A stretch of DNA of 63,701 nt, the filler included, from Octopus bimaculoides (lineage: Eukaryota), in assembly GCF_001194135.2 (NCBI RefSeq). It is 6 parts of 6 records of this genome, joined end to end, with 100 filler letters (N's around TTAATTAATTAA, not from the genome) between each part and the next. Parts side by side here need not be neighbours in the genome. Positions count along the whole stretch, not along the records: positions 13,026 to 23,845 come from NC_068985.1; positions 23,946 to 39,516 come from NC_068983.1; positions 39,617 to 56,391 come from NC_068996.1; 3 more parts are not named here. One strand, written 5' to 3'. Made by a program: the position numbers and the translations under genes. Under the pieces are notes generated by a model. It worked only from the letters and a program-made list of their open reading frames with translations. It was not told the origin of the DNA and did no database searches. This document shows, one piece after another, positions 21,213-52,778 of this stretch; within the stretch, counting starts at the first letter, position 1, and the number at the start of each line of letters is the position of its first letter.

Positions 21213-21375
21213 CAACAACAACAACAACGAAAAATACTTTAGGAATGAGAACCCATGTTCGAAATTTCCCCAAGACACCTGATGAAGGCTGAAGGGTATA
21301 ACAACCGAAACGTTGTGTTAATAACAAACAAGATGAAGACAAATATCCGTCGAATGTAAATAATGTATGTATTGG
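21060..21375 (+). mobile_element. Repeat with tRNA-like head, (AAT)n(AAC)n tract and hammerhead motif, bounded by short inverted repeats
   Basis: A-box-like tggtataatggtt and B-box gagttcgattcc lie in about 21105-21170. A hammerhead lies at 21274-21319. The ends agatgaggaattatgtacattaattacat and atgtaaataatgta are inverted. A related copy is at 37231-37395. Confidence 0.75.
21274..21319 (+). ncRNA. Minimal type-I hammerhead ribozyme (family 1)
   Basis: gacac-CTGATGA-a-ggctg(aagggtataa)caacc-GAAA-CGTT-gtgtt. Stem I is gacac/gtgtt, stem II has one mismatch, stem III is the palindrome ACGT, and the cleavage triplet is GUU. Confidence 0.75.
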
Positions 21376-22809
21376 TGTTGATTCGTTCGATTAAACCATG
21401 GACCATGGTGCTCCAGCTTGGCTGCAGTTCAATGACTAAAAGGCTAGAACAAATAAATAATAAATATGGCGATAATTTTCTTCAGGAATATGAAATATTT
21501 CCTAACATGGCGTTAAGCTATCATCAGCTTTTGCTTAATATTTACTCCCTCCGGCCCTTGTTTTCTCCCCAACTCTCTCTCTCTATCTATCTATCTATCT
21601 ATCTATCTGTCAACCTGCCTATCTTTCTGTTTATCCATCTCTCTATACCAAGGAAAAACTCTTACAAATCAGTTACATCTGCCAGGAATAGCAACCGAAT
21701 CTATTCCAAATAAAGTCCTACTGCCTTGACATATCAATTGCAGATTAAATAACTTACTCTAAGGCATATTTCGCCTGAAATAAAAAAGAAAAAAAAAGAA
21801 ATTGTCATATTCTCTATGTGTTTTGGTCATAGTCTTCTAAAATGGATTTAAAATAACAAAAGCGGCCAGAAAAAAAAACGTATAGAAACCTTGAGATTGA
21901 TCGATACGTATAATACAATAACACAAAAGGGTAACACTTAAAAAGGTGAAGGAAGAGGGTGAAATAGAATATATTTAAATGAAAGAAGACAAAATAAATT
22001 AAGAAGTAAAAAAAATGGAAAAAATATTAGAGCACAAAGAGGTATGAGAAAGTTTAGTTTTCCGGATAGATTTAGAGATATAAAAGTTTTAAAAGTTCAT
22101 GAATTCAAGAGATTAATGATGCATAAAATGTTTTTTGATATGGAAATAGATATAACAGTAGATGAGTAGATAAGTAAGTAAGTAGACAGAGAGAAGGGCA
22201 GATCGATAGCTAGCTGGTTAGATAGATAGATAGATCGATCGATCGATCGATAGATAGATAGATAGATAGATAGATAAAACGACAGATAGATAAATAAAAC
22301 GACGGACAGACAGACAGAACAACGCATTGTACTAACAACAATATCACTTCCAATGTTACAGAAATATATCAATGTCTTACCATGGTAAATTAATAATATA
22401 GAATAAATGGTTGGTTTTAATTAAATCAGTTTGAAATCTAATACGCCCGTTTCATATATGTCCTTGTTATGTATAATCATTGAATATCTGATGAGTAAAA
22501 TTAATCATCATTTAATTAAAATTTCTATTTATGAAGAACTTAGAATTTGAAGAATATAAAATTGATTGCTGCTCGTAATAGCACTGAACCGCTAATAAAC
22601 GAAGTAAACGGATGTTTCAGCTGTATCGTGTCTCCAATAAAAGTGTCTGAGGATATTCTTTACCACTTCAACATAATGAAGGTCGGGGTCAAAATAATTT
22701 GATCGCTTTAGTTGGTACAAATAACCACACAGAACACTAGTCTCACAAATAATGCTGGAAGATATCATTTAAGAGGATCTCTATGAAATATAATCGTTCC
22801 AAAATATTG

Positions 22810-23010
22810 CTTTCTCCTCTAGGCACAAGGCCTGAAATTTTTGGGGAGTAGGCCAGTCGATTAGGTCGACCTCAGTAAGTAACTGGTACTTAATTTATCG
22901 ATCCCGAAAGGATAAAAGGAAAAGTCAACTTCAACAGAATTTGAACTCAGTACGTAGCAACGGGTCACATACCGCTAATCACTTCGTCAGGCGTGCTAAT
23001 GGTTCTAATA
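22810..23010 (-). mobile_element. SINE family B
   Basis: Reverse complement of the family-B body (cccgaaaggataaaaggaaaagtcaac...tttgaactcag). Confidence 0.75.
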
Positions 23011-23163
23011 GTAATGATAATAATGACTGCAATATGTGTATCTCTTATTACGAATAGAAATAGTTAGGGAGAATCATTGTCATGTGGTGAGAGGACATTT
23101 TTGGGGTTTGAATAATTCACCTCAGGAAACAATGCAATGGCGGCCAAATCTAGGATTTGTATA

Positions 23164-23194
<31 letters not shown>

Positions 23195-23224
23195 TGTATG
23201 TATGCATGCATGCATGTGTGTGTG

Positions 23225-23440
23225 TGCGTATGTGTGTGTCTGTGTTTGTTCTCCACCAACGCTTGAGAACCGCTATTGGTGTGTTTACATCCTCTGTAGC
23301 GGCTCAGCAAAAAGAAGCCTATAGAATGAATATCAGGCTTTAAAACATGAGTATTGGGGCCGATTCATTCGACTAAAACCTCTTCATGCGGTGCCCCAGC
23401 ATGACCGCAGTCTAATTACTGAAACAAATAAAAAACAAAA
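23225..23440 (+). mobile_element. SINE family A, 3' half
   Basis: gtttgttctccaccaacgcttgag...ggtgccccagcatgaccgcagtc...actgaaacaaataaaa. Confidence 0.7.
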
Positions 23441-23845
23441 AGTACCACTTGAAACATTTGGACATTAAGACTGTTCTGACAGATCCATTATTATATAAGT
23501 ATAATAATGTTAATTAGATCCTATACGAACTAGAAAACCCAGACAGATAGAAAAGAACAGAAATGACGGCATTTATAATACACCGTGCAAAATTTGCGAT
23601 CGAAATATTAGATTTACTTGAAGGTAAAGATTATGCAACCAGAAATCTATTACAAAATACCTCCTGTAGGAGTACAAGTATATCTCGGAGATAATAAAAG
23701 AAAGTTGAAAAACTGAAAAAAATCCTTTCTGTCTTCTGGGAAGTTAAGGAACTCAAAGCAGGAGTGGAACTGATAGGTAATTATGAAAAAGAAAGAACAG
23801 AAGGTATGAAAAGCATAACAACTAAGCAAAAAAAAAAAAAAAAAA

Positions 23846-23945
23846 NNNNNNNNNNNNNNNNNNNNNNNNNNNNNNNNNNNNNNNNNNNNTTAATTAATTA
23901 ANNNNNNNNNNNNNNNNNNNNNNNNNNNNNNNNNNNNNNNNNNNN
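23846..23945. other. Artificial join spacer
   Basis: 44 N + TTAATTAATTAA (23890-23901) + 44 N. Confidence 0.95.
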
Positions 23946-24727
23946 GAGTAGAAAAGAATATCTGACTCACTAGCGTATCTAGGAGGGGGCGGTAGGGGCG
24001 GTCCGCCTCGGGCGGCACTTTTATAGAGGTGACATTTTTGGGTCTGCTGAAGGCAATAATGTAATTTTTGTGGGGTCCGGGGGCGGCAAACGGAAGGGTC
24101 ACCGCGGATGGGACATATTCTAGCTACGTTTGTAATCTGACTGCAGCGAGTTTGGAGACCACATTAGAGATTCCCGTACTTTTGTTTACTTGTATCTTTT
24201 TTTTTACCTGTTTCAGTCATTAGACTGCGGTCATGCTGGGGCACCACCTTGAAGAATTTTAGTCGAACGAACGATCCCAGTACTTATTATTTTTTGTAAA
24301 GCATGGTTCTTATTCCATCGATCACTTTCGTAGAACTGCTAAGTTATTGGAAGGTAAACACACCATCACCGGATGTGTGTGTCATTGTGTCTGTCCCTCA
24401 CCACCGCTTGACAATTGATGTTGGTTTGTTTACATCCCCATAACGTAGCAGTTCAGTAAAAGAGACCGATATAAAAAGAATTAGGCTTTAAAAAAAAAGT
24501 AGTGGGGTTGTTTCATTCAACTAAAAACAAAACTCGGCAAGACTTCCTTTTGCACCACCACCCCCAAACACGTTTTTAAAAAAAAATTTTTTTTCTACAC
24601 AAACCCCCGTTTTCGGCTACGGAGAATACGAATCTGCAAAAANNNNNNNNNNTTTTTTTTTGTTTTTTCAAAATATGCGGTAAAATATGGAGATTAAGAT
24701 TCTGCAAAAATTTCCAAAAATTTTTCT

Positions 24728-24786
24728 GGTTAGGGTTGGGGTTTTAGGGTTAGGGTGTTAGGGTTAAGGTTTTAGGGTTAGGGTTA
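24728..24786 (+). repeat. Degenerate interstitial (TTAGGG)n tract
   Basis: ggttagggttggggttttagggttagggtgttagggttaaggttttagggttagggtta. Confidence 0.85.
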
Positions 24787-25479
24787 CAGAAAAAAGTGAA
24801 AAATGAAGAAATCAGTGGGGGAGTAAGGTGGGGCTCAAAAAATTTCAAAATTCCGATTTTTGGCAATTTTCCGGAATCTCCGTATCCGAAAACATAGCAA
24901 AAAAATTTTTTAAAAACAATAATTTGCAAGAAAATGGGCAAGGGTGGGAGGAAGTTTTTCCCAAAACTCTTCAGCCTCAGTATAGCCTCAGGCTAATGAC
25001 CCTAACAAGAAAAATATATTTGTATACAACAGGCCTCTTTCAGTTTCTGTCTACTAAATCCATTCACGAGACTTTGGTCAGCCTGAGGCTATAGTAGAAG
25101 ACACGTAATGTGAATGTCATGCATTGGGACTGAACCCAGAACCATGTGGTTGGGAAGTAAATTTCTTTCCACACAGTCACGCCTGCTCTCTCTCTCTCTG
25201 TCTGGCTGTGGCAAAGCCTGGAGGGTGATGGACTCCATGTAGTTCTAAAAAATGTCCAGACACCCAAGCCAATACAGACTTCTACAGCTAAGCCAAAAGT
25301 GCCGCCCCCATAAAAATGTCACCCTGGGAAAACCTCCCTATTTGCTCCTCCCCTAGCTACAATACAGGTCATATATGATTTTATCAAGAGCTGAGGGCTC
25401 AAGGCAAGGATTTCTTAACCATTTGATATTAACTAAGTACATAGCTGTTATTGTTGTTGTTAATATTTATGTATAATTT

Positions 25480-26550
25480 CGTCTGTCTTCACGTTCTGAG
25501 TTCAAATTCCGCTGAGGTTGACTTTGCCTTTCATCCTTTCGGGGTCAATAAATTAAGTACCAGTTGTGTACTGGGGTCGATCTAATCGGCTGGCCCCCTC
25601 CCCCAAAATTTTGGGCCTTGTGCCTTGAGGTGAAAAGCATATTTATGCAAACAGGAGGCGGAGAGCTGGCAGAATTGTTAGCACACCAGGCAAAACGCTT
25701 AGCGGCATTTCATGTCTTTACATTCTGAGTTCAAATGCTGCTGAGGTTGATTTTTGCCATTCATCCTTTCGGGGTCGATAGATCAAGTACCATTTGAGCA
25801 TCGACCCCTCCCCCAGAATTGCTGGCATTGTGCCAAAATTCGAAACTAATATTTAAGCATGTTTGTTGTTTAACCAGCCTTGATTGAGTAGACCTATGAT
25901 CAACAGAATTCCAATCATGACCAATCCATTTGATCAGGAGTACTAGAGTGTGTGCCACATGGGGTACTCGCTGAGTTTCCCTTCCCCACCACTCCCTGAC
26001 CTTATACAAACTTACACAGCAGATCCAAAATTACTGCACCCCCACCCCCATAAAAGTGTTGTCCAGGGCGGACACCGCCCCGCGATTGCTCTTTCCACCT
26101 CAGCTACGCTACTGTCTACCCCCACTTTTCTTTTATAAACACAGTGGAGTGCTGTTTCAAGGAGATTTGTCTACTGTTTCTCACAGGTTGGAAAAAAGAA
26201 TTAGCGACAGGATAACTGTCTTGGGTTATTTAGTCATGGTCCTTTATGTTATGAGTTCAAATCCCGCCAGGATTGACTTTGCCTTTAATTGCTCTGGATT
26301 TTGCAAAATAAGCACCTGTCAAATATAGGTTTCAAATTTTGGCACAAGGCCAGCAATTTGGTGAGAGGGTTAAGGGTTAATTCAATTACATCAACCTCAG
26401 TATTCAACTGGTACTTATTTTGTCAACCTCGAAAGGATGAAAGGCAAAGTCGACCTTGAAGGTATCTGAACTCAGAACGGAAAGTTGGAAGAAATGCTGC
26501 TAAGCATTTTGTCCGGCATGAGAAAGATTCTGCCAGGCCAGCTCACCACC
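25480..26550. mobile_element. Cluster of family-B SINE copies
   Basis: Plus-strand copies at about 25480-25630, 25655-25840 and 26230-26330; a minus-strand copy at about 26335-26550. Confidence 0.75.
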
Positions 26551-26848
26551 CTAAATACCACCTCCCCTCATACACACACACACACCAAAATTTCTACCTT
26601 TGTGCCAATATAAGAAATCAGTTTTGCTGTTGTTTTCATGTTATGGTTATATATTGGATTGAGGAATAATTCATGAGTGTTTTTCTTTTTTCAAATTTAT
26701 TTTAAGCAAAAAAAACTACAACAAATTAATCAATAATATACTCTCCATTGTTGTTTACGATTTCTTCCCATTGTTCAATAAGATTGTCGATGCCTCAGCG
26801 ATAGAAATCTCCCAGTCTTGAATCAAGGAATTTGTCCAGCCAAGCCCT

Positions 26849-27844
26849 TGTAGCGTAGACTCTATATATATGTGCATTTGAATGTAGCAGGGACCAACTA
26901 GCCTTTGACCATTGTTTGTATCTTGTTGTGTCCACTACTCTGATTGGTTGGCATTGGCGCAATTTGTCTCCTACTCTGTTGTTCCAACTGACCACGGATA
27001 GCCAGTCAGAGGCTTTAGATAGCGTCATGTGAACAACCTTTTTCGAACCCCTTTCAAGCTTACTACACCCTATAAAAACCCAGCTTTTACCTCATTATAC
27101 GGCTTTGGTTCCTGACCTTTCAAGGTCAAGCCACTGACCACATAAACACAGCCAGTTCCAGTGACAACACCAGGCAACACGCTACTACAGTAGCTACATT
27201 GAGGCTTACCAACTTCATCCAACAGCATTTGGCAACCTCCATCTTCATCATCACTATCGTCTTAACATCAATGTCTCTATATACACAATGCAACAGGCAG
27301 CTCATTCAGGTTCCAACACTTCGCTGTTTGTGAATTACTTCACCATGGATCAACAGTAAATATACGACCTGCAAGAACTCCTGTACCAAGTGGCCCAGGC
27401 TGCAGCATCACAGCCATGACTTCACGTACGACATGTACCTGTAACCGGCTCAGCATCATGGCCACAACTTCTTGATACAGTATTTCAACTACCGTGTACA
27501 ATTGACTACGAACTGGTATTCTTATCCTTGTGTCTATGAACTTCTCACTTCGATGGCTATAGACTCTTTCACTGTCTTCTTCATTGCTATTCTATATGTT
27601 CTTAACACACACATACATACATTTGTTCTCATGACGGCCTATCAACTATTCTGTATACATGACGCACACACGGACACACATGTTAGCATATCAATAATTG
27701 TTCCCTTAATCATTCTATGCAGTTGTGTCTCTCTTTTCCCCTCTGGCACTTATTTGTACTGTCCAATTCCTCTGTTTTGTATCGGCCGTGTGATGTGGGG
27801 CTAAAGAGCTATTCTCATCACCTCGCAACACATGGTCTTTTACA
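26849..27844. mobile_element. Solo LTR (996 bp) inserted in the mariner transposase
   Basis: Begins TGTA and ends TACA, with a 4-bp target duplication CCCT (26845-26848 and 27845-27848). Removing it and one TSD copy rejoins the transposase (…ELR|AWLD…). Internal gattgg and tataaaa (27071) motifs. Confidence 0.85.
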
Positions 27845-28409
27845 CCCTCAATTCCACATCATTATTGAACAATACACTGCACAAAGCAGTCAAAAGAGAT
27901 GAAAATCTGATGGCGCCAAGTCTGGAGAGTATGGGGATGAGGCAACACTTCTCATTCGAGTTCTTGAATCACAGCTTTGGTCATATTGGTGATGTGAGAA
28001 TGGGCTTTTTTGTGTTGCAGAAAAACACATTTTACTCAATCGGTCTTTTTTGTTGAATTATTTCATTGAGTCAGTGCAGTTGTTGAATATAGAGTGCCGC
28101 AGTGAGTGTTTGGTTGCACTTAAGCAGTTTGTAATGAATTATGCCTTCCCAATGTCACATTACACACAAGGTAGATGGACAATTCATCAACAGACAGTTG
28201 GCTGACAGACAACTTAGGACAATTGTAAGGCATGGTATGGCACTGTTTGCAACCATGTGTTGAGTGATGTTGAACAAGCAAACTGATGGCGATTATAGAG
28301 CATTGATTTTTGCTGTTTACACTCAAAGTCTGTGACACCCAAGCACCAAGTATCTGAACTTTGTCCATTGAGTGAAGGGGGTTCACCACAGTTTTTTTTT
28401 TCCTCTATC

Positions 28410-28573
28410 GAGTGGCTGTGTGGTAAGTAGCTTGCTTACCAACCACATGGTTCCGGGTTCATTCCCACTGTGTGGCACCTTGGGAAAGTGTCTTCTACTA
28501 TAGCCTCGGGCTGACCAAAGCCTTGTGAGTGGATTTAGTAGACGGAAACTGAAAGAAGCCTGTTGTATATTTG

Positions 28574-28606
<33 letters not shown>

Positions 28607-28822
28607 ATATGTTTGTGTGTCTGTGTTTGTCCCCCCCTCAACATTGCTTGACAAGCGATGGTGGTGTGTTTACATCCCCGTAACTTAACGGTTCGGCAAA
28701 AGAGACCAATAGAATAAGTACGAGGCTTCCAAAGAATAAGTGCTGGGGTCAATTTGCTCAACTAAAGGCGGTGCTCCAACATGGCCACAGTCAAATGACT
28801 GAAACAAGTAAAAGAGAAAGAG
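28410..28822 (+). mobile_element. SINE family A (complete) nested in the mariner
   Basis: Complete copy from gagtggctgtgtggtaag to the gtaaaagagaaaagag tail. Confidence 0.85.
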
Positions 28823-29224: not shown

Positions 29225-29530
29225 GTTACCAATGCGGTTGTGAGATCGTTGCCAGAGCCGCCGAACTGGCTCCTGTGTGGGTGGCACATAAAATACACCA
29301 TTTTGAGCATGGCCGTTGCCAGTACCGCCTGACTGGCCTTCGTGCCGGTGGCACGTAAAAGCACCCACTACACTATCAGAGTGGTTGGCGTTAGGAAGGG
29401 CATCCAGCTGTAGAAACTCTGCCAGATCAGATTAGAGCCTGGTGTAGCCATCTGGTTTCACCAGTCCTCAGTCAAATCGTCCAACCCATGCTAGCATGGA
29501 AAGTGGACATTAAACAACGATGATGATGAT
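29225..29530 (+). mobile_element. RTE-LINE 3' UTR fragment with (ATG)n tail
   Basis: aaaagcacccactacact...ggcgttaggaagggcatccagctgtag...gatgatgat. The same sequence lies downstream of RTE ORF2 at 33951-34724 and 43700-44880. Confidence 0.75.
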
Positions 29531-30497
29531 GTTTTATTTCTGCGTGCATTTTTAAATTTAAAAAATAAAAAAGCACTCATGAATTATTCCTGAGCCCAAT
29601 TTAAAAAAATAAACACAAAGTATACTTGGCATCTTATCTCCAGTTATGATCTTTGTGACAGCTGCTCAACCATAAATCTTTTATGCTCCAACGTATTTAC
29701 ATACGTTGTAAATATGTTTGTCATTGTGTGGTTGCATTTTCGTGATCGTTATTATCGTCATCATCATCGTTATTATTTAACGCCCATTTCCCACGTTAGT
29801 TAGGGTAACAAAAACTTGAAATTTGAAATGTGACATGCTGTTGCAAACCTCTGTATTCACTGATGTGTGTTTAGTTACAAAAGTAAAAAAGAGGGTAAAA
29901 ATAATGATTTACGTTGGGTTGCAGTGCTCAATTCTTATCACTGGAAATATGTATTTGCGACAGACCAGAATCCGAAACGGGGCATCTACATCAAGGCTCA
30001 GGGGTCAGTAACAAGTGGGCCATTAAGTGTGCACATGCGTTTGTGTGTATATACGCGTGCGCACCATAGGCAGGTGTAAAAGTTGTGGAGAACAGGTTTT
30101 TCTAGTTTCTGTTCTACTTGGTGGCTCTACCCCAGACTGTCTAAACAGTATTATAAGTTTCCATGCAAATCGATACTTTGGGGTTAGCATGTATTTATTG
30201 ACTGCAACTCACAGCATTATATAGACTCAGATTGGGCCTAGGTTGTCTAACTGTGGCAAAAATGGAGATGCATTGCACAGCTGTCTCAACATTCTGAAAT
30301 TACCACCGAAAGCAGCCTTTTATTAACTACAAGAAGAAAATTTTAGAAGATCGAATCATGCAATTTCTAATCACGTGAAATTCTTTTGGTTCAGTCATGA
30401 TATCTGACTGCATATCCAAGGATCTAGCTTCGAATCCTTGCAACAAGCTCTTCAGCATGAAGGACTGTTGCTTCAACCGCCATCACTGTTGTGACAA

Positions 30498-30870: not shown

Positions 30871-30947
30871 AAGGAAATTCTAAACAATCCTTTATTACAC
30901 CACATTTTTTTGCTTTCACATTCGAATGAAATAAAACATCTATTCTA

Positions 30948-31070
30948 CAGGGTGTCCACAAGGTCTGGGTACATGGAGTAAATAAAATCATAACATAAAC
31001 AATTAAATATAAGAAATAATTTCTTAAAGTATGTGTTAATCCCATGTACCCAGACTTTGTGGACACCCTG
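30948..31070. mobile_element. 123-bp Tc1/mariner-type MITE
   Basis: 29-bp TIRs cagggtgtccacaaggtctgggtacatgg / ccatgtacccagactttgtggacaccctg (one mismatch), with TA on both sides. Confidence 0.9.
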
Positions 31071-31094
31071 TACAATGAAATTGTAAAAAGCACA

Positions 31095-31310: not shown

Positions 31311-31314
31311 ACTT

Positions 31315-37050: not shown

Positions 37051-37230
37051 CATTCATGAACAAGTCGGTCCAGATGATTGTAACAATGGTAAAAAATATC
37101 AATGTTAGTTTATTGATGCATTTGGGGAAGTCTATGTCTGTATTATCAGACAATTGCCCCAAAAAATGTTTAAAAAAATTCAAAACTCTGCAAAAATCCA
37201 GTACAAATTCTTCATTCAGTTCTATATCTA

Positions 37231-37395
37231 AGAGATGAGGAATTCTGGACATTATTTACATTCGACCCAGGTTCGAAATTTCCCCAAGATACCTGATGAA
37301 GGCTGGAGGGCATATCAGCCAAAACATTGTGTTAACAACAAACAAGATGAGGACAAATATCCGTCGAATGTTAATAATGTACAAAATTCTTCATG
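37231..37395 (+). mobile_element. Inverted-repeat-bounded copy of the 21060-21375 repeat with a decayed hammerhead
   Basis: CTGATGA-a-ggctg...cagcc-AAAA-CATT (GAAACG changed to AAAACA). The ends gagatgaggaattctggacattatttacattcga and tcgaatgttaataatgtacaaaattcttcat are inverted. The tRNA head is absent. Confidence 0.8.
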
Positions 37396-38879: not shown

Positions 38880-39011
38880 ATTGATTCCCAATGTTATGCA
38901 CTCAAAGTCTTCAATTCCAACGGTCCCTATATGAGAAAATCTATTCAGAATGAAGTATCAATACTGAAGAAATTAAACCATGAAAACATTGTTAGATTCA
39001 TTGATGTTGAG
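38880..39011 (+). CDS. TBK1: TBK1/IKK-epsilon-like Ser/Thr kinase, second coding exon (subdomains II-IV)
   Basis: Acceptor tttctttttctatgattag|, 132 nt, phase 0/0, peptide IDSQCYALKVFNSNGPYMRKSIQNEVSILKKLNHENIVRFIDVE (catalytic Lys in ALK, alphaC Glu, HENIV), donor |gtaagt at 39012. It joins exon 1 in frame. Confidence 0.92.
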
Positions 39012-39361
39012 GTAAGTAGTCAGGTTATGCTATAGTTGTATTTTTTTAATTTATTGCAGATAATTCATGTTAATTGTGAAGCTGAGTATATTAACGAAAT
39101 ATGAAAAATACATTGGTGACAGCAGCAGTGCTACACACCTCCTCCTACTCTTCTTCTTCTTCTTCTTCTTTTTCTTCAGGTCTTCGCAAGCTGAGTTTAG
39201 TGTCCAATGAAGGAATGGTGGCATGATATATATATATATATGTGTGTATGTATATATATGTAAAAACATATGTGTGTATATATATCTATATATATATCTA
39301 ACCTCGTGGGCATCGGTACCATTTTCCTCTTTCTCCGTTCTTCCATTCTCCGAACTTTCCA

Positions 39362-39395
39362 TCTTTCCGACGAAGGGCTACGCCCGAAATGTCAT
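39362..39395 (+). ncRNA. Degenerate minimal hammerhead motif (family with 4-bp stem II)
   Basis: cttt-CCGACGA-a-gggc(tac)gccc-GAAA-TGTC. The core U4 is replaced by C and the ACGT palindrome has become ATGT. Confidence 0.5.
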
Positions 39396-39516
39396 ACACT
39401 CTCTCTTTCCTTTCCTGAGCGTCCAATAATACTATCCATATCACGTCCTCACTTTGTTGTTTTTTTGTTTTTTTGTTATTGTTTTTTTGAACTATATATA
39501 TATATATATATATATA

Positions 39517-40191: not shown

Positions 40192-41879
40192 CTAGCAGTA
40201 TAACCCGGCGTTGTCCAGGTGTGACTTATTACGCCATCTACGATAAATCTTGCTAGGTGAAAATCAACTAAAAAAGAAAGCCTTACAATGATGTAAATAT
40301 GTTCATAATTCAAAAGACGATTAAATTAATAGGGAAAGTCTGAAGGCTGTTTTGCGTAACATTATTAAGTGTACGTAAATTTCATCCGTCTAATTGGCTA
40401 TAGAAATGCCTGTGAAAAACAACTTTTTGCACTGCCCTGATTATACATAGCAGGGTAATCCCTTTTCGCAGGAGCTAGGACGGCAATTTCTGATGAAGCA
40501 ATTGCTGGCAATCTGTTGCTACACAGTTCTGCCAGAATTCTATCAGATTGGGCAGTAGATGTTGATGCACCATTTTGCATTATGTTCAAAGTAGCTTCTG
40601 GAATGTGGTGAATTGCTGCAGTCTGTTGCTGTCATTTTAAATCGGTTGCTTTTTTTCCCCAGCAAACTCTCTTCTTTGGAGGCATAATCTATGTATATAT
40701 TAAACAGAACAACAAAAGTTATAATAGATGGCAGGGTAGGTAGTTTTCACATTTCTAAAGAAGTTCACTGATTTGCAATGTGTTGTCCTGTCTACATAAG
40801 TTCCGTAGTTTGTATATTTACAAAACATTGATGAACATGTAGTAAGGTAAGATCTAGTTATATTGTAGTGAATGCTTGCGTGTACGTGCGCATGTGTGCG
40901 TTTGAGAGAGCGAAAGAGAAGAGGGAGAGAGGGCGAGAAAGGAATAGAGAACAGGAGCAATGAAGAAAGAGAAAGAGAGGAAGGGAGAATGGAAGACAGT
41001 TATAAAATAGCAATGTGTACGCGTGTTTATATAAGAAACACACACAAACTAAATCTTATATCTATAATGTTGATGTGTGTATGTATTTATGTGTGTGTTG
41101 TTGTCACAGATCACATATGTGTGGTTGTGTGTGTTTTTACACTTCTATGTTATGAAAAACATGTAAAAAATACTAAGAGGAGACAAGGATGCTGAACATG
41201 CAGACAGACAATGTAACGAAAACATGAACGAATGAAACGGGGTATTCCTTATTCAGTCTAGTTACAAATTATCATTGCAACTTTGGCAAAAGGAAGCTAA
41301 GAGCCCCAGATTCCTTGGAAGAAAGAACAGTGATGCTGGCGTATGCAGGAAATGAGAAAGTGAACGAGGAAAAACAGATGTGCACAGACAATGGTTGAAG
41401 CAGAGAAATGGTGATAAGCCCCAAATGACCAGGTCACGTGGATAGTTAGAGGTAGAGGGATAGAAGAAAGCTATTAAATGGGAGAGAGGAAGAAGAACGA
41501 AGTAAGAGTGAAAAGGTAGATAGAAGGAAAGAATAGTCTTAAACCAAGTTAATCTATGAATTGTATGTATCGCTTTCTCTCCCTCTCCCTCTTTTACTCT
41601 TACTGTCTATATTATATGTTGAGCGTGTGATCGATGTGTAAGAACGCCGGTACAGATAGAATGGAAGAAATATAAAAGTTGCTAGAAACAACAGCCAAAT
41701 CTCCCTTAAATCACACAAAGTAAACGGAATTTAAAAAATCTAATTACTGCACTGGAAAGTTCACATCGAGAAAATTCCATTGATGTAAAAATTTTCACGG
41801 AAAAGTGGAAAATGTGGATTTCTATAAACTTTTAAAAAGGTTACACACAGACACACAACTTCAGCTTTATATATTAAGA
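40192..41879 (-). mobile_element. Probable non-autonomous Helitron
   Basis: Minus strand A|TCTTAATATATAAAG... (41879) to hairpin cctggacaacgccggg plus ttatactgCTAG|T (40192-40195). It contains a decayed MPPKKRVCWGKKATDLK*QQQ... ORF start at about 40400-40685. Confidence 0.55.
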
Positions 41880-41968
41880 TTTCCCTTTATACTTCCTATA
41901 TCCTCCCTTTCCAAAATAACTTCTTAAATTGAACTCTACTATTTTCCTCCATTTAACTCTCTCATATT

Positions 41969-42016
41969 GTCTCTGATGAAGGGATATCCCTCATATCCCA
42001 GAAACAGCTGTAAGAC
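41969..42016 (+). ncRNA. Minimal type-I hammerhead ribozyme (family 2)
   Basis: gtct-CTGATGA-a-gggatat(ccctc)atatccc-a-GAAA-CAGCTG-TA-agac. It has a 7-bp stem II, a perfect ACAGCTGT palindrome as stem III, a GUA triplet (42010-42012) and stem I gtct/agac. Confidence 0.8.
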
Positions 42017-42651
42017 TACCGTTCTCTTTATAAATGTCCAAGAAATTTCACACTGCCTTGACTTTGTTGTCTCATTTTATTTAACACATACACACACACA
42101 CACACACATATTTCTTTTTTGAACCTTGAACAAAATAAGAAAATGAAGATTTTAAGAGATAAACAGTGAGGTGTCTGTTCTGACGGAACCAATGATTCTA
42201 TCACGGTTCTGAACCAGTAAATCGGCAGAAGGTAGTTTTCTTGCATCAGCACTACTTTTATTCAAAATAATGGATTCGTAACTTTTGGAAACCAAACCTT
42301 GACCTAAAACCGAAGCCAGATATTCAAACATTGAGCTCTTGTGTGATATTCAAACATAAAGTTCTTGTATGAGTGCAAAAACAAAACAACAAAAAAACAA
42401 AATAACTGAATTCCATTGATAAGATCTGTACTGCCAAACCCTACCCACCAACAAAACAATTATTGTAGAATAATCACCAGACAAGGAAGAGAAATTCCAC
42501 TAACAGACACAATTGGTCACATGAAGTCATGGAGAACCAACAGTGTAGAAAAGAGGCGAACATTTGAGTATCGTTTTATGCTCTTCATCCCATATATGAA
42601 GAGGACAAACAAAGAATTTTAAAAAAATTGTTGATCTTTGCAGGTGCAGGA

Positions 42652-43536: not shown

Positions 43537-43597
<61 letters not shown>

Positions 43598-44974: not shown

Positions 44975-45380
44975 TCGGCTTGCAAAGACCTGTTGGGGCA
45001 AGCGAAAGTGAAATCGTGATGGTACCTGAGCCCAGCGTTGCCTTCCTGGCACTTATGCCAGTGGCATGTGTAAAGACATTCGAGTGAGATCATTGCCAGT
45101 GCCGATGGACTGGCTCCTGTGCATGTGGCACGTAAAATACACCATTTTGAGCGTGGCTGTTGCCAATACTGCCTGACTGGCCTTCATGCCGGTGGCACGT
45201 AAAAGCACCCACTACACTCTCGGAGTGGTTGGCGTTAGGAAGGGCATCCAGCTGTAGAAACTCTGCCAAATCAGATTGCAGCCTGGTGTAACCATCTGGT
45301 TCACCAGTCCTCAGTCAAATTGTCCCACCCATGCTAGCATGGAAAGCGGACGTTAAACGATGATGATGATGATGATGATG
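44975..45380 (+). mobile_element. RTE-LINE 3' UTR with (ATG)n tail
   Basis: Same family as 29225-29530. Confidence 0.8.
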
Positions 45381-45700
45381 TAGTACTGGGAGTTAATGTA
45401 ATCAACTTCTTCCTCAACTCAGGTTTGTCTTGTTAAAAAATCAAAATCCTTGGTTCATGTTGTGGCAAGAGTCATTGGATACCCCTGGGAGATTGGAAGA
45501 ACGAACTAGCTGAACACTTATAAAGAGTAACATGTTGGTTGAGACAAGAGGTCAGCAGGAGTCATTGAGAGGGCATTTTGGAATCTCGTAAAGTACGTTG
45601 TGTGAACACATTGATTTTTACTTCTGTTTTGTTAATTATATATCCAATGTTTGTCAGGGATATAAAAGTTCCTCACCTAAGGCTGCTCCAGCTCAGCAAA

Positions 45701-45980
45701 TTTGACTGAAAAGATTTGACTGAAAAGATTTGANNNNNNNNNNTTTGACTGAAAAGATTTGACTGAAAAGATTTGACAGAAAAGATTTGACTGAAAAGAT
45801 TTGACTGAAAAGATTTAACTGGAAAGATTTGGCTGAAAAGATTTGACTGAAAAGATTTGACTGAAAAGATTTGACTGAAAAGATTTGACTGAAAAGATTT
45901 GACTGGAAAGATTTGACTGAAAAGATTTGACTGGAAATATTTGACTGAAAAGATTTAACTGAAAAGATTTGACTGAAAAG
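45701..45980. repeat. 14-bp minisatellite (TTTGACTGAAAAGA) x about 20
   Basis: Directly visible; includes a 10-N gap. Confidence 0.95.
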
Positions 45981-46105
45981 TGACATTTAACAACTCCAGC
46001 AACAAATAACAACCAGTAACCAAGATAAATTGTACTAATACCAGCATTATGCAGTGAGCATGGATTATAACACATGTCATAACTACCCTTTTTTACAGCA
46101 ACTAC

Positions 46106-46230
46106 CTGTTTATGGACAATCCTATTTCCTTGTACAATATCTCTACTAATTCAGCTCGGCTTCGGGCAAGTCTGGAGAACACCGACATCTTGAATGGTTT
46201 CACACATTCATTTGGCACTATATTAGAAGC
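46106..46230 (-). CDS. Candidate isolated internal exon of an unidentified gene
   Basis: Minus strand tgctttcaatttcag|ASNIVPNECVKPFKMSVFSRLARSRAELVEILYKEIGLSIN(R)|gtagtt; only one frame is open and the sequence is non-repetitive. No family was recognised, and a plus-strand acceptor also exists. Confidence 0.35.
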
Positions 46231-47129
46231 CTGAAATTGAAAGCAGATATTTTCTTTCCTTATTAGAGATACTACAATTACATAATAATTATGTATGTAT
46301 GTATGTATGTATGTATTTATGTATGTATGTATGTATGTATGTATGTGTGTGCATTTATGTGAGTGTATGTATTTGTGAATGTGTGTGTGTATGTATGCAT
46401 GCATGCATTTGTGAGTGTGTGTGTATATCTATGTATGTATCTGTGTGTGTATGTATGTATTCGTGTGTGTGCATGTATGTATATATTTGTGTGTGAGTGT
46501 GTGTATGTACGTATGTATTTGTATGTGAGTGTGTGTGTATGTATGTATGTGTGTATCTATGTATGTATGTGTGTATGTAAGTGTGTATTATGTGTGTATG
46601 TGTGTATGTGTGTATGTATGTGTTTATGTATGTGTGTATGTATGTATGTATGTATGCATTTGTGAGTAAGTGTGCAAATGTAGGGATAGATATATGGATA
46701 TACATATCTATATTAATAAAAGCAAAATTCCATCTGTCCATTTGGGACCCCTGCATCTCGATATACATTTGCTCTACATAGACATATACCTTTTTGGAAT
46801 CAGGATGATCCTTAGATCGAAAATTTGGCCTTCATTTGGTTCTTGAACATTCAGCATTGGGATCTGATTAAAGAAGCATTTGGGCTGCTATTTCTAGCAG
46901 GTAAAGCTTGGTGTGTCAGATGACGTCAGAGATCAAAGGGGAGATAAATGACATTCGCTTCGTTAATTTTACATCAACATAAGAACTTTGGGACAAATTG
47001 ACCAACAGTTTGAATTCAACTTGGGACTGGAACAATAGAATGATTTGCATTACAAAATTAATTCTCATCCACCCTTAACCTCTGACCAAACACCACCAGG
47101 TCATATAGTCATTATAGACAAGTGAGATT

Positions 47130-47735
47130 GTAACTGTGGCCTATGCCAGTGTTGCATGACCAGCCCATCTAAAAGAGCCCTTCAATTGTTGTGTAATATG
47201 CTGTGCTTGACAAGACCTGTTTAGTCAAGTGAAATCGTTATCATAGCCAATGCCAGTACCACCTGACTGGCACCCATGCCAGTGGCTTGTAAAAAGCACC
47301 ATTCAAGTGTGGTCGATGCCAGTGCTGCAGGAGTGGCTCCCATGCCAGTGGCATGTAAAAAGCACCATTCAAGTGTGGTCAATGTGAGTGCTGCAGGAGT
47401 GGCTCCTGTGCAGGTGGAATGTAAAAAGCACTATTTGAGTGTGGCTGATACCAGTGCCGCCTGACTGGCTTCCATGCTAGTAGCACGTAAAAAGCACCAT
47501 TCGAGTATGGTCGATGCCAGTAACACCTGACTGGCCCCTGTGCCAATGGCACATAAAAAAAGCACCCACTACACTCTTGGAGTGGTTGGCATTAGGAAGG
47601 GCATCCAGCTAAAGAAACCTTGCCAGATCAGATTGGAGCCTTGTGCAGCCTCCTGGCTTGCCAGTCCTCAGTCAAACCATCTAACCCATGCCAACATGGA
47701 AAGCAGATGTAAAACAATGATGATGATGATGACGA
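47130..47735 (+). mobile_element. RTE-LINE 3' UTR with about five internal 66-bp tandem units
   Basis: Repeating ...atgccagtggc-tgtaaaaagcaccattcaagtgtggtcgatgccagtg... (22-aa periodicity in ORF 47276-47464), then the standard tip and (ATG)n tail. Confidence 0.8.
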
Positions 47736-48200
47736 GCTATTTAGTTCTCTTTAATTTTGAGCTGCAGCCCCAATTAGCCCTTTGCAGGAGCTAGCTTAAA
47801 ATCTGAACAGAGTGCAGCTTTTAAGATAGTATATCTTATAACAGATATATAATTGTCATCCTCATTCTACGCTGCTGTGGGTTTGGCGATTCAACGTAAA
47901 CAGACAAGTCAGAAGACGGCATTTTGCCATGGCTTCACCAGCTGGATGCTGCCCTTCTTCACACCAACCCCTTTATGGAGGGCACAGTGCTTTTTCATGG
48001 CACCAGCACTAGTGATGTCACCAAGAAGCCACAAGACAAGACCCCCACTCAACTGAGTGATGTACGATAGTGAGGGATAAGAAAATAAGATAAAGCTGTC
48101 TTGCTAAGAAGTGAATGTAGAGAGAGAGAGAGGTGTGTATGTATGCATGTATGTATGTGTGTAAGTATGTATGTATATACTCAAACACACATTCATATAT

Positions 48201-48233
<33 letters not shown>

Positions 48234-48454
48234 CATATATATANNNNNNNNNNATATATATATATATATATTCCTCCATGTGATCGGCTAGAAAAATTGT
48301 TAGGATATTAAGATATTTTTCTTAACATGAAACCAATGCACAAGTAAAGAAATTTTATCCACCAATGCAATGTTGAGCACTCATTCTCATTGTTCAACAC
48401 ACACACATAGTTTTTTATTAAAGCTGCAAAAACATCAGAAAAATATCACAAAAA

Positions 48455-48495
48455 GCTGCTACTCAGAGTTTCACATTCCCTTTCATCAGGCAGGG
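48455..48495 (-). ncRNA. Hammerhead-like motif with collapsed stem II (family 3)
   Basis: Minus strand ctgc-CTGATGA-aagggaatgt-GAAA-CTCTGAG-TA-gcag. Stems I and III are intact and stem II is incomplete. The stem III type matches 3431-3481. Confidence 0.5.
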
Positions 48496-49267
48496 GTACA
48501 CACACATATATGTATGTATGTATGTGCGTGCATATGTGTGTATATACATATATATGTGTGTGTAAGTATGTGTGAAGGTGTATATAACAGGTATGTGCCA
48601 TATGTAAATACTAAAGTATTACTAATTAGGTCAGATGAGTAAAATCCCTGCCACTGATACCATGTAACCCAATACAACCGGTCCCATGATTAAGTGGTTG
48701 TTGACTAAACCAGCCACTCCCACTTGGCTCGCCAGGTGAGGAAGGTGTTGTGGACACTCAGCAGGATTAAAATCCAAACCTGTCAAAGGATGGATGAGCT
48801 CATCATGAGCTAATGGCCATCCACACGAGTTGTGTCTCATAAAAACACCCTGTTTGTAGGCTGGAAGATCATATGAAAGTAATGGGTTGACAAATGACAA
48901 TATCAGCCAAAAGGAAAGCAAACTGGCACTTCGTCAGTTTTTGTGACATAGGGAGATTGTACCGTGATGACATTTTTGGGCAGCTGCTAATTACAGGTGT
49001 GAAGTTTTCTACAGAAATTTGATATAATCTACATTTTTGGTTGCATCTAAGAACTCCAATGGCTTGAATGAAGAAAAGTTTCAAATCAAAGACCAGAGGG
49101 AACAGTAATCCAAAGAGAAATATATACAGGTTAAGAACAACTGCAGAGTAAATGGTTTTGTTCTACAGATTTCCATTAATTCAGAGCTCTCAGAAGCAAA
49201 AGTGGAGTTCCGTTGGCAAAGCAAACATTTCGCAATATAAGTATATGTATGAGTGTGTGTGTGTGTT

Positions 49268-49309
<42 letters not shown>

Positions 49310-49618
49310 TGTGTGTGTATGTATATATGTATGCATGTATGTATGCATGTATGTATGTATGCATGTATGTATGTATGTATGTGTGTGTGTGTATGTATGT
49401 ATGTATGTATGTATATATGTATGTATGTATGTATATGAAACAAACGTAAAACTTTTAAAATATGTATTTTTAAAGAAAATATTGCAAATATGCAAATTTT
49501 GTTTTTTCATACTTACTTTAATTTCTGGATACTGTGCAATTTCTAAAATAAATCTTTTGGCCTCTTCCCTTGTCCTCAATGCCTGGAAAGAAATATATAT
49601 ATTCTCATATATGCACAC

Positions 49619-49657
<39 letters not shown>

Positions 49658-49738
49658 NNNNNNNNNNAGAGAGAGAGAGACATGTGTGTATATATATATA
49701 TATATAGATATAGATAGATAGACAGATAAATAGACAAG

Positions 49739-49800
<62 letters not shown>

Positions 49801-49816
49801 GATAGATAGATAGATG

Positions 49817-49851
<35 letters not shown>

Positions 49852-50606
49852 GGATAGATAGATAGATAGACATGCATATATATTCAAGAAGGTGCTCAAA
49901 AGTTCCTGACTTTAAAGGCATCGCTAAAGGCCTGGTTGAACGCCCAACCTTGAGTTCTTTTACAAGGCTTAGAAAAAAGAGTGAACTAGCTAGTTCACTC
50001 TTTAGCCTATCGACTTCAAGATGGTATGATTTTAATATATTGAGCCTTCTGGCCTCATCTCGAGGCCCTGTTCTTTCCTCTTCCCTCTTCCCTTCATTTA
50101 TTCTATTTTATGTATTTGTATTCACTCTAATGAAGCTCCATGTACTAGATCGAATCTTCTATGAAGATGACAAATATTATTTTCGGAATTTCTTTCGTAA
50201 GCACCAACTAACATTGGAAGTGGTAACGGCCGTAAGAAATGTTATGTCATGTTTCGTACTAAAAAAATAATCAACCGATGTTGGTCAATTTGCTTGTTTG
50301 CTGATCAAAATTTTTCTCCGTTTTTTGATTATTTAAATTTGATTCCTGATAAACGTTTGTTTGTTCAGTTATTACCTGCATACTATGCCTGCATACCCAA
50401 GCCCACGGATAACATAGGTAATTGATATTAATAGTAAATACGGATACTATTATCTCTTAGATGGTTATTGCAACCATTAACTCTGCTTACCTATATATAT
50501 ATATATATATATATAGGGGGAGAATTCACAAAAAAAAAACAACAAAAGACGAAGACAGGTGGTGTAGACAACAAACAGATGTATTAGTATAACGCTTGAG
50601 AAGTGA

Positions 50607-50648
50607 AGAAGTCTTTAACATTTTGAGCCTACGCTCTTCCACAGAAAG
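50607..50648 (-). ncRNA. Decayed minimal hammerhead motif
   Basis: Minus strand cttt-CTGTGGA-a-gagc(gtag)gctc-AAAA-TGTT-aaag. Stems I and II pair, but the core is mutated. Confidence 0.4.
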
Positions 50649-50715
50649 GAACAGAGAAAGAAACAAGGAGAGAAAAAAAGAATGTGTAGTGGCTAGCGAT
50701 CTGTATATATAGTTA

Positions 50716-51484
50716 CAGGGGTTGGACAAAATAATGGAAACACCTAGCATCATAGCATCATAATTTTGAAATATCTATAAAACGATCAAAAGCTTGTTTA
50801 TTTTTGTTTTTTGATTTATTATTAGTGTTGCTTAATATGTTTTGCTAAAATTGCTTTTTCTTTTCAGATATCATCAGAAAAAGGTAATTAAAATTTCATG
50901 AAAATGACAGATCTATCGGACTTTCAAAGAGGTCAAATTGTTGGTGCTCGTATGGCAGGCACTAGCATAACAAAAACAGCCGAAATGTTTGGTGTACCAA
51001 GAAGTACTCTCTTGAAAGTAATGGCAGCCTTTGAGAAAGAGGGAAAAACCTCCTCGCCGAAACAAAACTCTGGAAGAAAACCAAAACTTTCAGATAGTGA
51101 CCATTGGACTCTTACGTGAATTGTTAGAAAGGTTCACAAAAGTACAGCTCCCAAAATTACTGCAGAGCTTAATGACCACCATGAGAACTCAGTTTCCACA
51201 AAAAACTATTCGCCGGGAGCTGCACAAAGCCAGATTTCACAGGAGAGCTGCAATCAGAGAACCACTACTTTCAAAAAAAAATGTTGCTAACTGTTTTGAG
51301 TGGAGTAAAAACCTATAGAATTGGTCCCTAGAGCAGTGGAAGAATGTTATTTTCTTGGACGAGTCATCCTTTACCTTATTTCAGACCGCCAGCCGATTAT
51401 ATGTGTGGAGACAGCCAAAAGAAGCATTTGACCCAGACTACCTTCTTCCAACTGTTAAACATGGAGGAGGATCTGTGATGATCG
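50716..51484 (+). mobile_element. Tc1-family transposon, left end and 5' part of transposase
   Basis: TA|CAGGGGTTGGACAAAATAATGGAAACACC terminus. MTDLSDFQRGQIVGARMAG... (HTH) through WKNVIFLDESSFTLF...PTVKHGGGSVMI (DDE start), with stops and frameshifts; it runs into an N-gap. Confidence 0.92.
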
Positions 51485-52634
51485 GNNNNNNNNNNNNNNN
51501 NNNNNNNNNNNNNNNNNNNNNNNNNNNNNNNNNNNNNNNNNNNNNNNNNNNNNNNNNNNNNNNNNNNNNNNNNNNNNNNNNNNNNNNNNNNNNNNNNNNN
51601 NNNNNNNNNNNNNNNNNNNNNNNNNNNNNNNNNNNNNNNNNNNNNNNNNNNNNNNNNNNNNNNNNNNNNNNNNNNNNNNNNNNNNNNNNNNNNNNNNNNN
51701 NNNNNNNNNNNNNNNNNNNNNNNNNNNNNNNNNNNNNNNNNNNNNNNNNNNNNNNNNNNNNNNNNNNNNNNNNNNNNNNNNNNNNNNNNNNNNNNNNNNN
51801 NNNNNNNNNNNNNNNNNNNNNNNNNNNNNNNNNNNNNNNNNNNNNNNNNNNNNNNNNNNNNNNNNNNNNNNNNNNNNNNNNNNNNNNNNNNNNNNNNNNN
51901 NNNNNNNNNNNNNNNNNNNNNNNNNNNNNNNNNNNNNNNNNNNNNNNNNNNNNNNNNNNNNNNNNNNNNNNNNNNNNNNNNNNNNNNNNNNNNNNNNNNN
52001 NNNNNNNNNNNNNNNNNNNNNNNNNNNNNNNNNNNNNNNNNNNNNNNNNNNNNNNNNNNNNNNNNNNNNNNNNNNNNNNNNNNNNNNNNNNNNNNNNNNN
52101 NNNNNNNNNNTATATATATATATATATATATATATGAGAAGATCTGTTGAGTCAAGTAAAACCAAAATCGTAGCTGTGGCCAGTGTCCCCTGACTGGCTC
52201 CTGCGCTGGTGTTACATAAAAATCACCATCTGAACATAGTCGAAGCCAGAACTGCCTAACTGGCTCCAATGCTGGTGGCACGTAAAAAGCACCATCCGAA
52301 CATCATCTCATTTCTTTGATAATGCTTTATCAAATAGCAGTTAGCCTCTAACTTTTGACCCCTATGATAAGGACCGTCCCATTAAGCTCACCCCACAATG
52401 TCTTTCCCTTGCTAGTTCCCCCAGTAAAATTGAAATACGACGTACCCCTCATAACCTGTGGAAATTACTCCTGAAAGTGACTTTCTTTACCATAAGATAT
52501 GATCCCATGGCTTATGGATATCACCTTGGAATTGATGTTTTTACCATTCCTTACTATTTCTATTATGTTATTATTTTATTTTATTTTATTATTTTGCCCT
52601 ACTTCTTCACATATTAGATTCCTAACATTTTAGT

Positions 52635-52778
52635 TTCTCTGATGAAGCTTAGGGTCTCAGTCATTGTCCAACCCCTGTCCAATGTTTGTTCAACCTTTGT
52701 AAAATTCCTGTATATTACTGGCGTGATGTGAAAAACTTGGCAGGTTGGACAACCCTATAGTAGAAACAGCTGTAAGAG
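52635..52778 (+). ncRNA. Type-I hammerhead motif (family 2) with greatly extended stem II
   Basis: ttct-CTGATGA (52639-52645), about 115 nt able to fold back (agggt/accct, tgtccaacc/ggttggaca, ctgtccaa/ttggcag), then GAAA-CAGCTG-TA-agag (52763-52778). Confidence 0.65.

What the first reader, a model, noticed from the sequence alone, without database searches (positions are those of the whole stretch)
21274..52778. At least three families of minimal type-I hammerhead ribozymes with palindromic stem III
Seen: CTGANGA...GAAA cores with pairing stems at 21274-21319 (stem III ACGT), 41969-42016 and 52635-52778 (ACAGCTGT), and 3431-3481 and 48455-48495 (ACTC-N-GAGT). Decayed copies lie at 37290-37335, 39362-39395 and 50607-50648. 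That is about eight in roughly 55 kb of called sequence. Established: minimal hammerheads with palindromic stem III occur in Penelope-like elements and are thought to cleave as dimers. Inference: this genome may hold a very large, diverse ribozyme load that standard repeat annotation does not label. Most copies have an extra A between the core and stem II, so activity is not guaranteed.
Basis: partly seen in the sequence, partly recalled or inferred. Interest (0 to 1): 0.75.

Follow-up and report, generated by a model that had tools for sequence, protein, structure and literature searches.

The report
Penelope transposon ends carrying hammerhead ribozymes
The eight motifs belong to seven repeat families, five of them sitting at the end of Penelope-type jumping genes and two likely so, which is a known arrangement; most copies likely cannot cut, and one family has a tRNA-like segment that likely serves as its promoter.

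Summary
All eight motifs are real. They belong to seven repeat families of a 2.34-Gb animal genome (likely an octopus). Five families lie downstream of Penelope-like (PLE) coding sequence: one Poseidon-type, two Neptune-type, two Hydra-type. The other two fit the Hydra type. Stems differ between families yet still pair. This is the known hammerhead of PLE terminal repeats (pLTRs), and the extra A is a published trait.

Corrections: 3431 is truncated; 48455 has a broken stem II; 39362 is not decayed but one change from a very young family with U4C and almost no stem I; the 50607 family never has A6. Close copies lie head-to-head, not in tandem, so few could cut as dimers.

The unusual part: the 21274 family (3,228 exact 31-nt core matches) has a tRNA-like segment with A and B boxes between its ORF end and its ribozyme. 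36 of 46 copies that reach this segment begin there, so it is likely a Pol III promoter. The scan found this arrangement before in other genomes, and PLE hammerhead ends on other pieces of this genome. Cleavage and Pol III transcription are untested.

The parts
21045..21089 (-). Family A: inverted copy of the element's 3' tail, set in front of the main copy (PLE insertion signature)
21103..21178 (+). Family A: tRNA-like segment; A box 21110-21120, B box 21155-21164; lies about 30 nt after the ORF stop in long copies
   Evidence: ARAGORN calls it only at lowered thresholds, Rfam not at all
21179..21367 (+). Family A: (AAT)n(AAC)n, ATG at 21245 opening a frame through the ribozyme, AC-rich 3' part
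21274..21319 (+). Family A minimal hammerhead (helix III ACGT, extra A, predicted cut after U21314); one private mismatch in stem II
37217..37266 (-). Family A second insertion: inverted tail
37265..37394 (+). Family A second insertion: 5'-truncated copy with decayed hammerhead 37290-37335 (G12A)
41879..42092 (+). Family B end; hammerhead 41969-42016, helix III ACAGCTGT; family majority A10.1-U11.1, this copy A.A; likely Hydra clade
52310..52982 (+). Family B2 end; hammerhead 52635-52778 with a 117-nt extended stem II; likely Hydra clade
3433..3532 (+). Family C end, 5'-truncated inside the core; family core U4C, helix III ACTC-C-GAGT; Hydra clade
48397..48493 (-). Family C2 end; hammerhead 48455-48493, 3-bp stem II with GGAA loop broken in this copy; Hydra clade
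39296..39499 (+). Family D end (very young, followed by (TA)n); motif 39362-39395 with U4C and one stem I pair; Neptune type
50500..50702 (-). Family E end; motif 50607-50648 with family-wide U (rarely C) at position 6, this copy also G12A; Neptune type

Best explanation
The eight motifs are hammerhead-bearing ends of seven repeat families, five of them found downstream of Penelope-like coding sequence and two likely of the same kind, likely spread by the elements' own reverse transcriptase and endonuclease and mostly predicted not to cut. SHOWN: family membership, linkage to PLE RT or GIY-YIG sequence (A many loci, E many, C two, C2 one, D one across an assembly gap), 5' truncation, head-to-head inversions, stems that differ but pair. 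INFERRED: reverse transcription starts inside the RNA just 3' of the hammerhead, as measured for the anole element PAc, so every insertion carries the motif as a passenger. The motif would cut, weakly and with a partner copy or the element's protein, only in the parent RNA, and cutting is likely dispensable for jumping, since the youngest family has the worst motif. In family A (Poseidon type) a tRNA-like segment likely marks the transcription start of the terminal repeat (Pol III type, about 55%); RT running off that RNA 5' end would give the many copies that begin there.
For: Family sizes (first-look candidates, not copy numbers): A 3,905, A' 2,019, B 2,016, B2 322, C 839, D 1,620, E 2,568. 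The 31-nt A core has 3,228 exact matches, reversed control 0. [quoted passage not shown] E: 16 of 30 loci picked by a Neptune-type EN hold the E end. D: Neptune-type EN 1.2 kb upstream in L167; D and E ends align. C and C2 lie downstream of Hydra-type RT in L417, L418, L435 (3 of 20 loci); their helix III and that of B/B2 match Hydra-clade rows of PMC8557442 File S2. Head-to-head inversions: A 27 of 70 sites, B 5 of 33, B2 4 of 31, C 7 of 27, C2 2 of 7, against 2 of 97, 0 of 81, 1 of 56, 0 of 37 for four control repeats. Across seven families stem I pairs at 24 of 28 cells (permuted 16.0, P 0.002) and stem II at 25 of 28 (permuted 15.5, P 0.0009). A 5' ends: of 92 usable copies picked only by the exact core, 46 reach the start of the tRNA-like segment, 36 of these end within -25..+13 and 10 run further; with a better reference 26 of 39 end at -7..+5. 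A and A' both keep A and B boxes. PMC11167929: ribozyme mutants of PAc insert normally in vitro, and cleavage needs the protein.
Against: No cleavage data. B was not found downstream of a PLE ORF; B2, C2 and D rest on one locus each. D (0 of 30) and E (0 of 60) show no head-to-head inversion. Within families I found no two-sided compensatory change; core positions are only 2-5 points more conserved than flanks, and not at all in C2. The stem II offsets were chosen to maximise pairing, which inflates that test, and the families are related. No pLTR-to-ORF junction or ORF start of family A was recovered. RNA reads from another species fall only about 25-45% from the tRNA-like segment into the ORF end on the L005 reference, a weaker step than the genomic sample suggests. 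One of the 36 clustered ends (L350) is an internal deletion, not a true end, and inversion junctions blur ends by about 10 nt. Clade names rest on motif likeness to supplement rows, not on a tree.
Confidence: 0.88

Rival explanations
1. The short family A copies are an independent tRNA-headed SINE that borrows the PLE machinery and re-amplifies from its own Pol III transcripts.
For: 5' ends cluster at the tRNA-like start; A and B boxes kept in two subfamilies; no run of four T in the majority sense strand of the 229-nt repeat; two head-to-tail junctions (L327, L399) resume at position -6.
Against: The same segment is an integral part of long coding copies, so no separate element is needed; an ATG-opened frame runs through the ribozyme in 43 of 74 A copies against 0 and 4 in the other frames, as in the coding repeat of PAc. 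A separate short lineage was not tested.
Confidence: 0.25
2. The pile-up of 5' ends in family A comes from RNA processing or RT behaviour (RNase P-like cutting at the tRNA-like fold, or fold-back at a small palindrome there), not from a promoter.
For: A short palindrome overlaps positions -7..+5, and 52 of 92 copies have an inverted partner. The segment scores as tRNA only at lowered ARAGORN thresholds (1 of 25 at 90%).
Against: 16 of the 26 clustered ends lie at -7..-1, upstream of where tRNA 5' maturation would cut; the differences between A and A' keep both box patterns.
Confidence: 0.3
3. The genome holds a large load of active ribozymes that cut host transcripts or make circular RNAs (retrozyme-like).
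For: Canonical cores survive in 50 of 67 A, 25 of 35 B and 19 of 30 B2 copies (samples favour well-preserved copies); family A is present in RNA reads of a related species; the 8-nt palindrome of B/B2 gives a duplex of -11.1 kcal/mol.
Against: Among the first 100 exact A matches 11 pairs lie within 1 kb: 10 head-to-head, 1 tail-to-tail, none on the same strand within 10 kb (read); a head-to-head pair folds into one long hairpin that hides the motif. Tandem sites are 0-2 per family. Monomer helix III is impossible for ACGT and costs +2.1 to +2.4 kcal/mol for the others.
Confidence: 0.1
4. The motifs are chance matches in repetitive DNA.
For: No Rfam hit; 6 of 200 shuffles reach the loose count; weak folding z-scores.
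Against: Seven families keep core, paired stems and palindrome with different letters, at the place where PLEs carry hammerheads, and match published Hydra rows.
Confidence: 0.01

Closest known systems
Minimal hammerheads of metazoan PLE terminal repeats (Cervera and de la Pena 2014, PMC4209133)
   Same: Type I topology, palindromic 15.2-16.2, unpaired base before G10.1-C11.1, many heterogeneous families, mostly single truncated copies, some close pairs on opposite strands.
   Different: Family-wide U4C (C, D) and A6U (E), no stem I in D, 117-nt stem II in B2; the passages read report C3U-G8A as the core variant.
Penelope/Poseidon element PAc of Anolis (PMC11167929)
   Same: Family A: RT then GIY-YIG, hammerhead in the repeat, a frame opened near the ribozyme, AC-rich 3' part, two 3' ends separated by a tail of about 40 nt.
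   Different: Family A has a tRNA-like segment with A and B boxes and an (AAT/AAC)n run in the repeat; the passages read describe none for PAc.
Hydra-clade PLEs (PMC8557442, Files S1 and S2)
   Same: Helix III actc-N-gagt (C, C2) and acag-NN-ctgt (B, B2), mismatched or A-U base of stem II, RT motif MGSYDGA.
   Different: None of the window motifs equals the listed Hydra-1_oBim hammerhead; these are other families.
Neptune PLEs (PMC8557442 Fig. S2 legend and rows)
   Same: D and E: C-terminal EN preceded by a CX2-5CxxC linker; D ends are followed by (TA)n in 27 of 30.
   Different: Core defects fixed in both families. The linker is shared with Nematis, so the clade name is by likeness.
TRIMs with Pol III promoters (Cassandra, Helenus, Ajax; PMC10886601) and Schistosoma Sm-alpha (as described in PMC6765202)
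   Same: A small-RNA-derived promoter inside a terminal repeat, or ahead of a hammerhead.
   Different: Those are non-coding and LTR-type or tandem; here the segment sits in the repeat of a protein-coding PLE.
Metazoan non-LTR retrozymes (PMC7229834; bioRxiv 10.64898/2026.07.22.740005)
   Same: Type I hammerhead, PLE relatedness.
   Different: Not tandem arrays of units; linked to ORFs; helix III minimal or short.

Membership tests
PLE minimal/short-helix-III hammerhead | Core CUGANGA...GAAA | tested here: met
   Majority canonical in A, A', B, B2; mixed in C2 (4 T, 4 C at position 4 of 9); not met in C, D (U4C) and E (A6U)
PLE minimal/short-helix-III hammerhead | Stems I and II with compensatory change between families | tested here: met
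   24 of 28 and 25 of 28 cells pair; D fails stem I (1 pair of 4)
PLE minimal/short-helix-III hammerhead | Compensatory change within families | tested here: not met
   Read from alignments: only one-sided or mismatch variants
PLE minimal/short-helix-III hammerhead | Palindromic helix III | tested here: met
   ACGT, ACAGCTGT, ACTC-N-GAGT
PLE minimal/short-helix-III hammerhead | Self-cleavage as dimer or with protein | not testable with these tools
   No assay; RNA-seq libraries are fragmented
Penelope/Poseidon PLE (family A) | RT followed by C-terminal GIY-YIG-like EN without linker zinc finger | tested here: met
   EN recognised by eye, Pfam gave no EN hit
Penelope/Poseidon PLE (family A) | 5' truncation, inverted 5' copies, tail at one end only | tested here: met
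   27 of 70 sites inverted; tail upstream-inverted and at the 3' end together in 0 of 46 copies
Penelope/Poseidon PLE (family A) | Partial tandem: repeat upstream of a full ORF | tested here: inconclusive
   No junction recovered; open frame through the repeat is indirect support
Neptune PLE (D, E) | EN with CX2-5CxxC linker upstream of the end | tested here: met
   E; D one locus across a gap; no tree built
Hydra-clade PLE (C, C2) | Hydra-type RT upstream and Hydra-type helix III | tested here: met
Hydra-clade PLE (B, B2) | Hydra-type ORF upstream | tested here: inconclusive
   B2: EN fragment 1.1 kb upstream in L100 only; B: none; helix III matches
tRNA-derived SINE (short A copies) | tRNA-derived head with A and B boxes at the 5' end | tested here: met
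   tRNA origin only weakly scored; box patterns recalled
tRNA-derived SINE (short A copies) | Independent of a coding parent | tested here: not met
   Segment is part of long coding copies
tRNA-derived SINE (short A copies) | Pol III transcription | not testable with these tools
   Absence of T4 runs is compatible but not significant (P 0.11-0.15)
Non-LTR retrozyme | Tandem units each with a hammerhead | tested here: not met
   0-2 tandem sites per family; none among first 100 A matches

The most novel reading that the evidence does not exclude
Family A is a protein-coding retrotransposon read by RNA polymerase III: a captured tRNA-like promoter at the head of its terminal repeat drives the whole 2.5-3 kb element, whose sense strand has no four-T terminator, and the hammerhead just downstream may allow cap-independent translation of the uncapped RNA; the same start site spawns thousands of SINE-like copies. 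Beside it, Neptune-type families keep the hammerhead shape without a working core, pointing to a non-catalytic role.
Probability: 0.28. Interest if true: 0.8.

Novelty: new variant of a known kind. Interest (0 to 1): 0.45.

Why it matters
The ribozyme load itself is ordinary PLE biology. Two points go further. (1) A coding Poseidon-type element with a tRNA-like promoter cassette inside its terminal repeat would be a ready intermediate between an autonomous retrotransposon and a SINE, and a possible Pol III-read coding gene. (2) The youngest family (D) spread with U4C and no stem I, and its relative E with A6U. Together with canonical families in the same genome, they are a natural series for the open question whether PLE hammerheads must cut at all.

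Tried and rejected
Rfam: no hammerhead in the window, no tRNA or hammerhead in seven family A loci or at 21080-21400. ARAGORN: no tRNA in the window. My first reading of family A as a free-standing SINE was dropped when the coding region appeared upstream. I first labelled the B2/C-type proteins Nematis-like; the supplement of PMC8557442 showed Hydra motifs. The RT remnant at 2945-3313 is not the parent of the motif at 3433: the family C hits cover only the last 86 bases of the query. A second L005-like test, Pol III terminator depletion, was not significant, and Neptune-type ORFs are also poor in T runs. The tail-to-ORF junction was not found. Sequencing runs: no RNA holder listed. Two unstranded RNA-seq runs of another species showed no place where many molecules begin or end; fragmented libraries cannot show a cut, so this is no evidence either way. 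Lunse et al. 2017 on small PLE hammerhead variants is not held, so U4C and A6U may already be listed there. The protein Atlas gave no answer. Earlier notes by sequence and nearby: none. Repbase and Dfam could not be searched. bioRxiv supplements are closed and may bear on PLE repeat structures.
Full report
OBSERVATION. The window is a pack of six stretches of a 2.34-Gb animal genome, likely an octopus (inference from repeat content and from earlier notes; not tested). All eight motifs are present. Three have a canonical core and both stems (21274, 41969, 52635). 3431 is cut off inside the core, 48455 has a broken stem II, 37290 and 50607 carry G12A, and 39362 is one change from a near-identical young family. 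A strict descriptor gave 2 hits against 0 in 40 shuffles; a loose one 2 against a mean of 0.245, with 6 of 200 shuffles reaching 2. Rfam found none.

FAMILIES. Genome searches split the motifs into seven families (40 candidates scored per search, 30 loci fetched), plus a sister subfamily A'. Majority cores: A canonical in 50 of 67 copies; B in 25 of 35, stem II starting with A-U; B2 in 19 of 30, with a 117-nt stem II; C has U4C (26 of 31); C2 a 3-bp stem II with a GGAA loop; D has U4C in 30 of 30 and one stem I pair; E has U at position 6 in 44 of 46, C in 2, A in none. These samples favour copies similar to the query. PMC3088659 (passages) reports A6C and U4C as natural variants of low activity. 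Between families the stems pair at 24 of 28 and 25 of 28 cells (offsets chosen for best pairing, families related). Within families I saw no two-sided change.

PARENTS. A lies directly behind an RT and GIY-YIG-like ORF whose motifs resemble the Poseidon rows seen in PMC8557442's supplement. E lies behind a Neptune-type EN in 16 of 30 EN-picked loci; D does so in one locus across a gap and aligns with E. C and C2 lie behind Hydra-type RT in 3 of 20 loci. B and B2 share helix III with Hydra rows of File S2; B2 has an EN fragment upstream in one locus, B none. Head-to-head inversions, a PLE trait (PMC8557442 passages), occur in A, B, B2, C, C2 and not in D or E; four control repeats show 3 of 271 (the A and A' queries cross-hit, so their counts overlap).

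LOAD. The 31-nt A core has 3,228 exact matches; 3 of 20 copies picked by their ORF carry it exactly, which suggests about 20,000 copies with wide error. Bystander motifs in the fetched flanks number 29, about 33 per Mb summed over families, or very roughly 70,000 remnants; flanks of repeats may be enriched. PMC4209133 (parts 1-2 of 4 read) already reports thousands per animal genome, the extra base, and low activity of dimers.

CAN THEY CUT? ACGT cannot close a monomer helix III; the other palindromes cost over 2 kcal/mol as hairpins and give -7.8 to -11.1 as duplexes. A partner on the same RNA is needed, but of 11 close pairs among the first 100 A matches 10 are head-to-head and none is on the same strand, and such a pair folds as one long hairpin. 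PMC11167929 (passages and second part of the main section) found that the PAc hammerhead cuts only with protein and is not needed for insertion in vitro. That fits family D, which is the youngest and has the poorest motif. All of this is inference; nothing was assayed.

THE tRNA-LIKE SEGMENT. About 30 nt after the ORF stop, family A carries a 76-nt segment with A- and B-box patterns (patterns recalled), kept in A and A' despite other changes. ARAGORN calls it only at lowered thresholds (1 of 25 at 90%, 5 of 25 at 80%). I fetched 98 of the first 100 exact matches; 6 were dropped (5 at gaps, 1 misaligned). Of 92, 46 start downstream of +13, 36 within -25..+13, and 10 further upstream, up to beyond -1,284. 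With a cleaner reference 26 of 39 end at -7..+5. An ATG 35 nt before the ribozyme opens a frame of 45 codons in 43 of 74 A and 13 of 23 A' copies, other frames 0-4. By analogy with PAc this makes the repeat the 5' end of the transcript, and the segment its promoter; I took this whole-element reading from earlier notes and tested it in part. The majority sense strand has no T4 run in 2.38 kb, but P is only 0.11-0.15 and Neptune-type ORFs are similar. The repeat-ORF junction was not found. RNA depth drops only modestly at the segment. PMC13725137 (abstract and passages) shows that hammerhead cleavage can start cap-independent translation in viruses; its use here is speculation.

LITERATURE. Five searches for a tRNA-derived promoter in a PLE (listings only) gave no title or abstract start describing it. 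Passages of PMC4758252, PMC10886601, PMC6765202 and PMC7229834 describe octopus tRNA-SINEs, Pol III TRIMs, Schistosoma Sm-alpha and retrozymes, not this. Of bioRxiv 10.64898/2026.07.22.740005 I read part 1 of 5. Lunse 2017 was not available; Repbase was not searchable. Absence from print is therefore not established.

VERDICT. Real, mostly known: PLE ends with hammerheads (0.88). The Pol III-type promoter in family A is likely (about 0.55), a Pol III-read coding element possible (0.28). The scan noted both PLE hammerhead ends in this genome and the tRNA-like cassette in other genomes before; those notes are not independent support. Interest 0.45.

Noticed in passing
window 2945-3313 (+): Remnant of a PLE-like reverse transcriptase (YVDD motif; Pfam RVT_1 E 0.0032, below cut-off); looks Naiad-like from recall, not tested; the family C stump lies 120 bases after it.
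   Followed up: partly
window 38898-39011 and 39296-39499: A protein kinase exon (Pfam Pkinase E 5e-5, below cut-off); the young family D copy sits 285 bases downstream on the same strand, likely in the intron.
   Followed up: partly
L419, L426, L428, L431: Further Hydra-type hammerhead families not in the window, with ACTC-N-GAGT, different stems, and both U4 and C4 cores.
   Followed up: partly
window 5151-5537, 12345-12898, 29240-29531 and their other copies: Three or four abundant SINE-like repeats without hammerheads, used as controls.
   Followed up: partly
window 45700-45980 and 47250-47559: A 14-bp tandem array (20 copies) and a 66-bp tandem array (4.7 copies) related to a dispersed repeat.
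   Followed up: no
window 30933-31085: A long inverted repeat, MITE-like; Rfam WsnRNA46 match below the gathering score.
   Followed up: no
L105:400-1500 and other B2 loci: About 1.1-1.8 kb of T-rich sequence shared upstream of the B2 ribozyme with no clear ORF on either strand; unexplained.
   Followed up: partly
window 21040-21400: Family A words occur in runs under seven organism labels; only some rows were laid.
   Followed up: partly
L009:1-948: A large-subunit rRNA fragment lies beside a family A insertion.
   Followed up: no
L011, L249, L087: Mariner-like transposase remnants (label from recall) next to several insertions.
   Followed up: no
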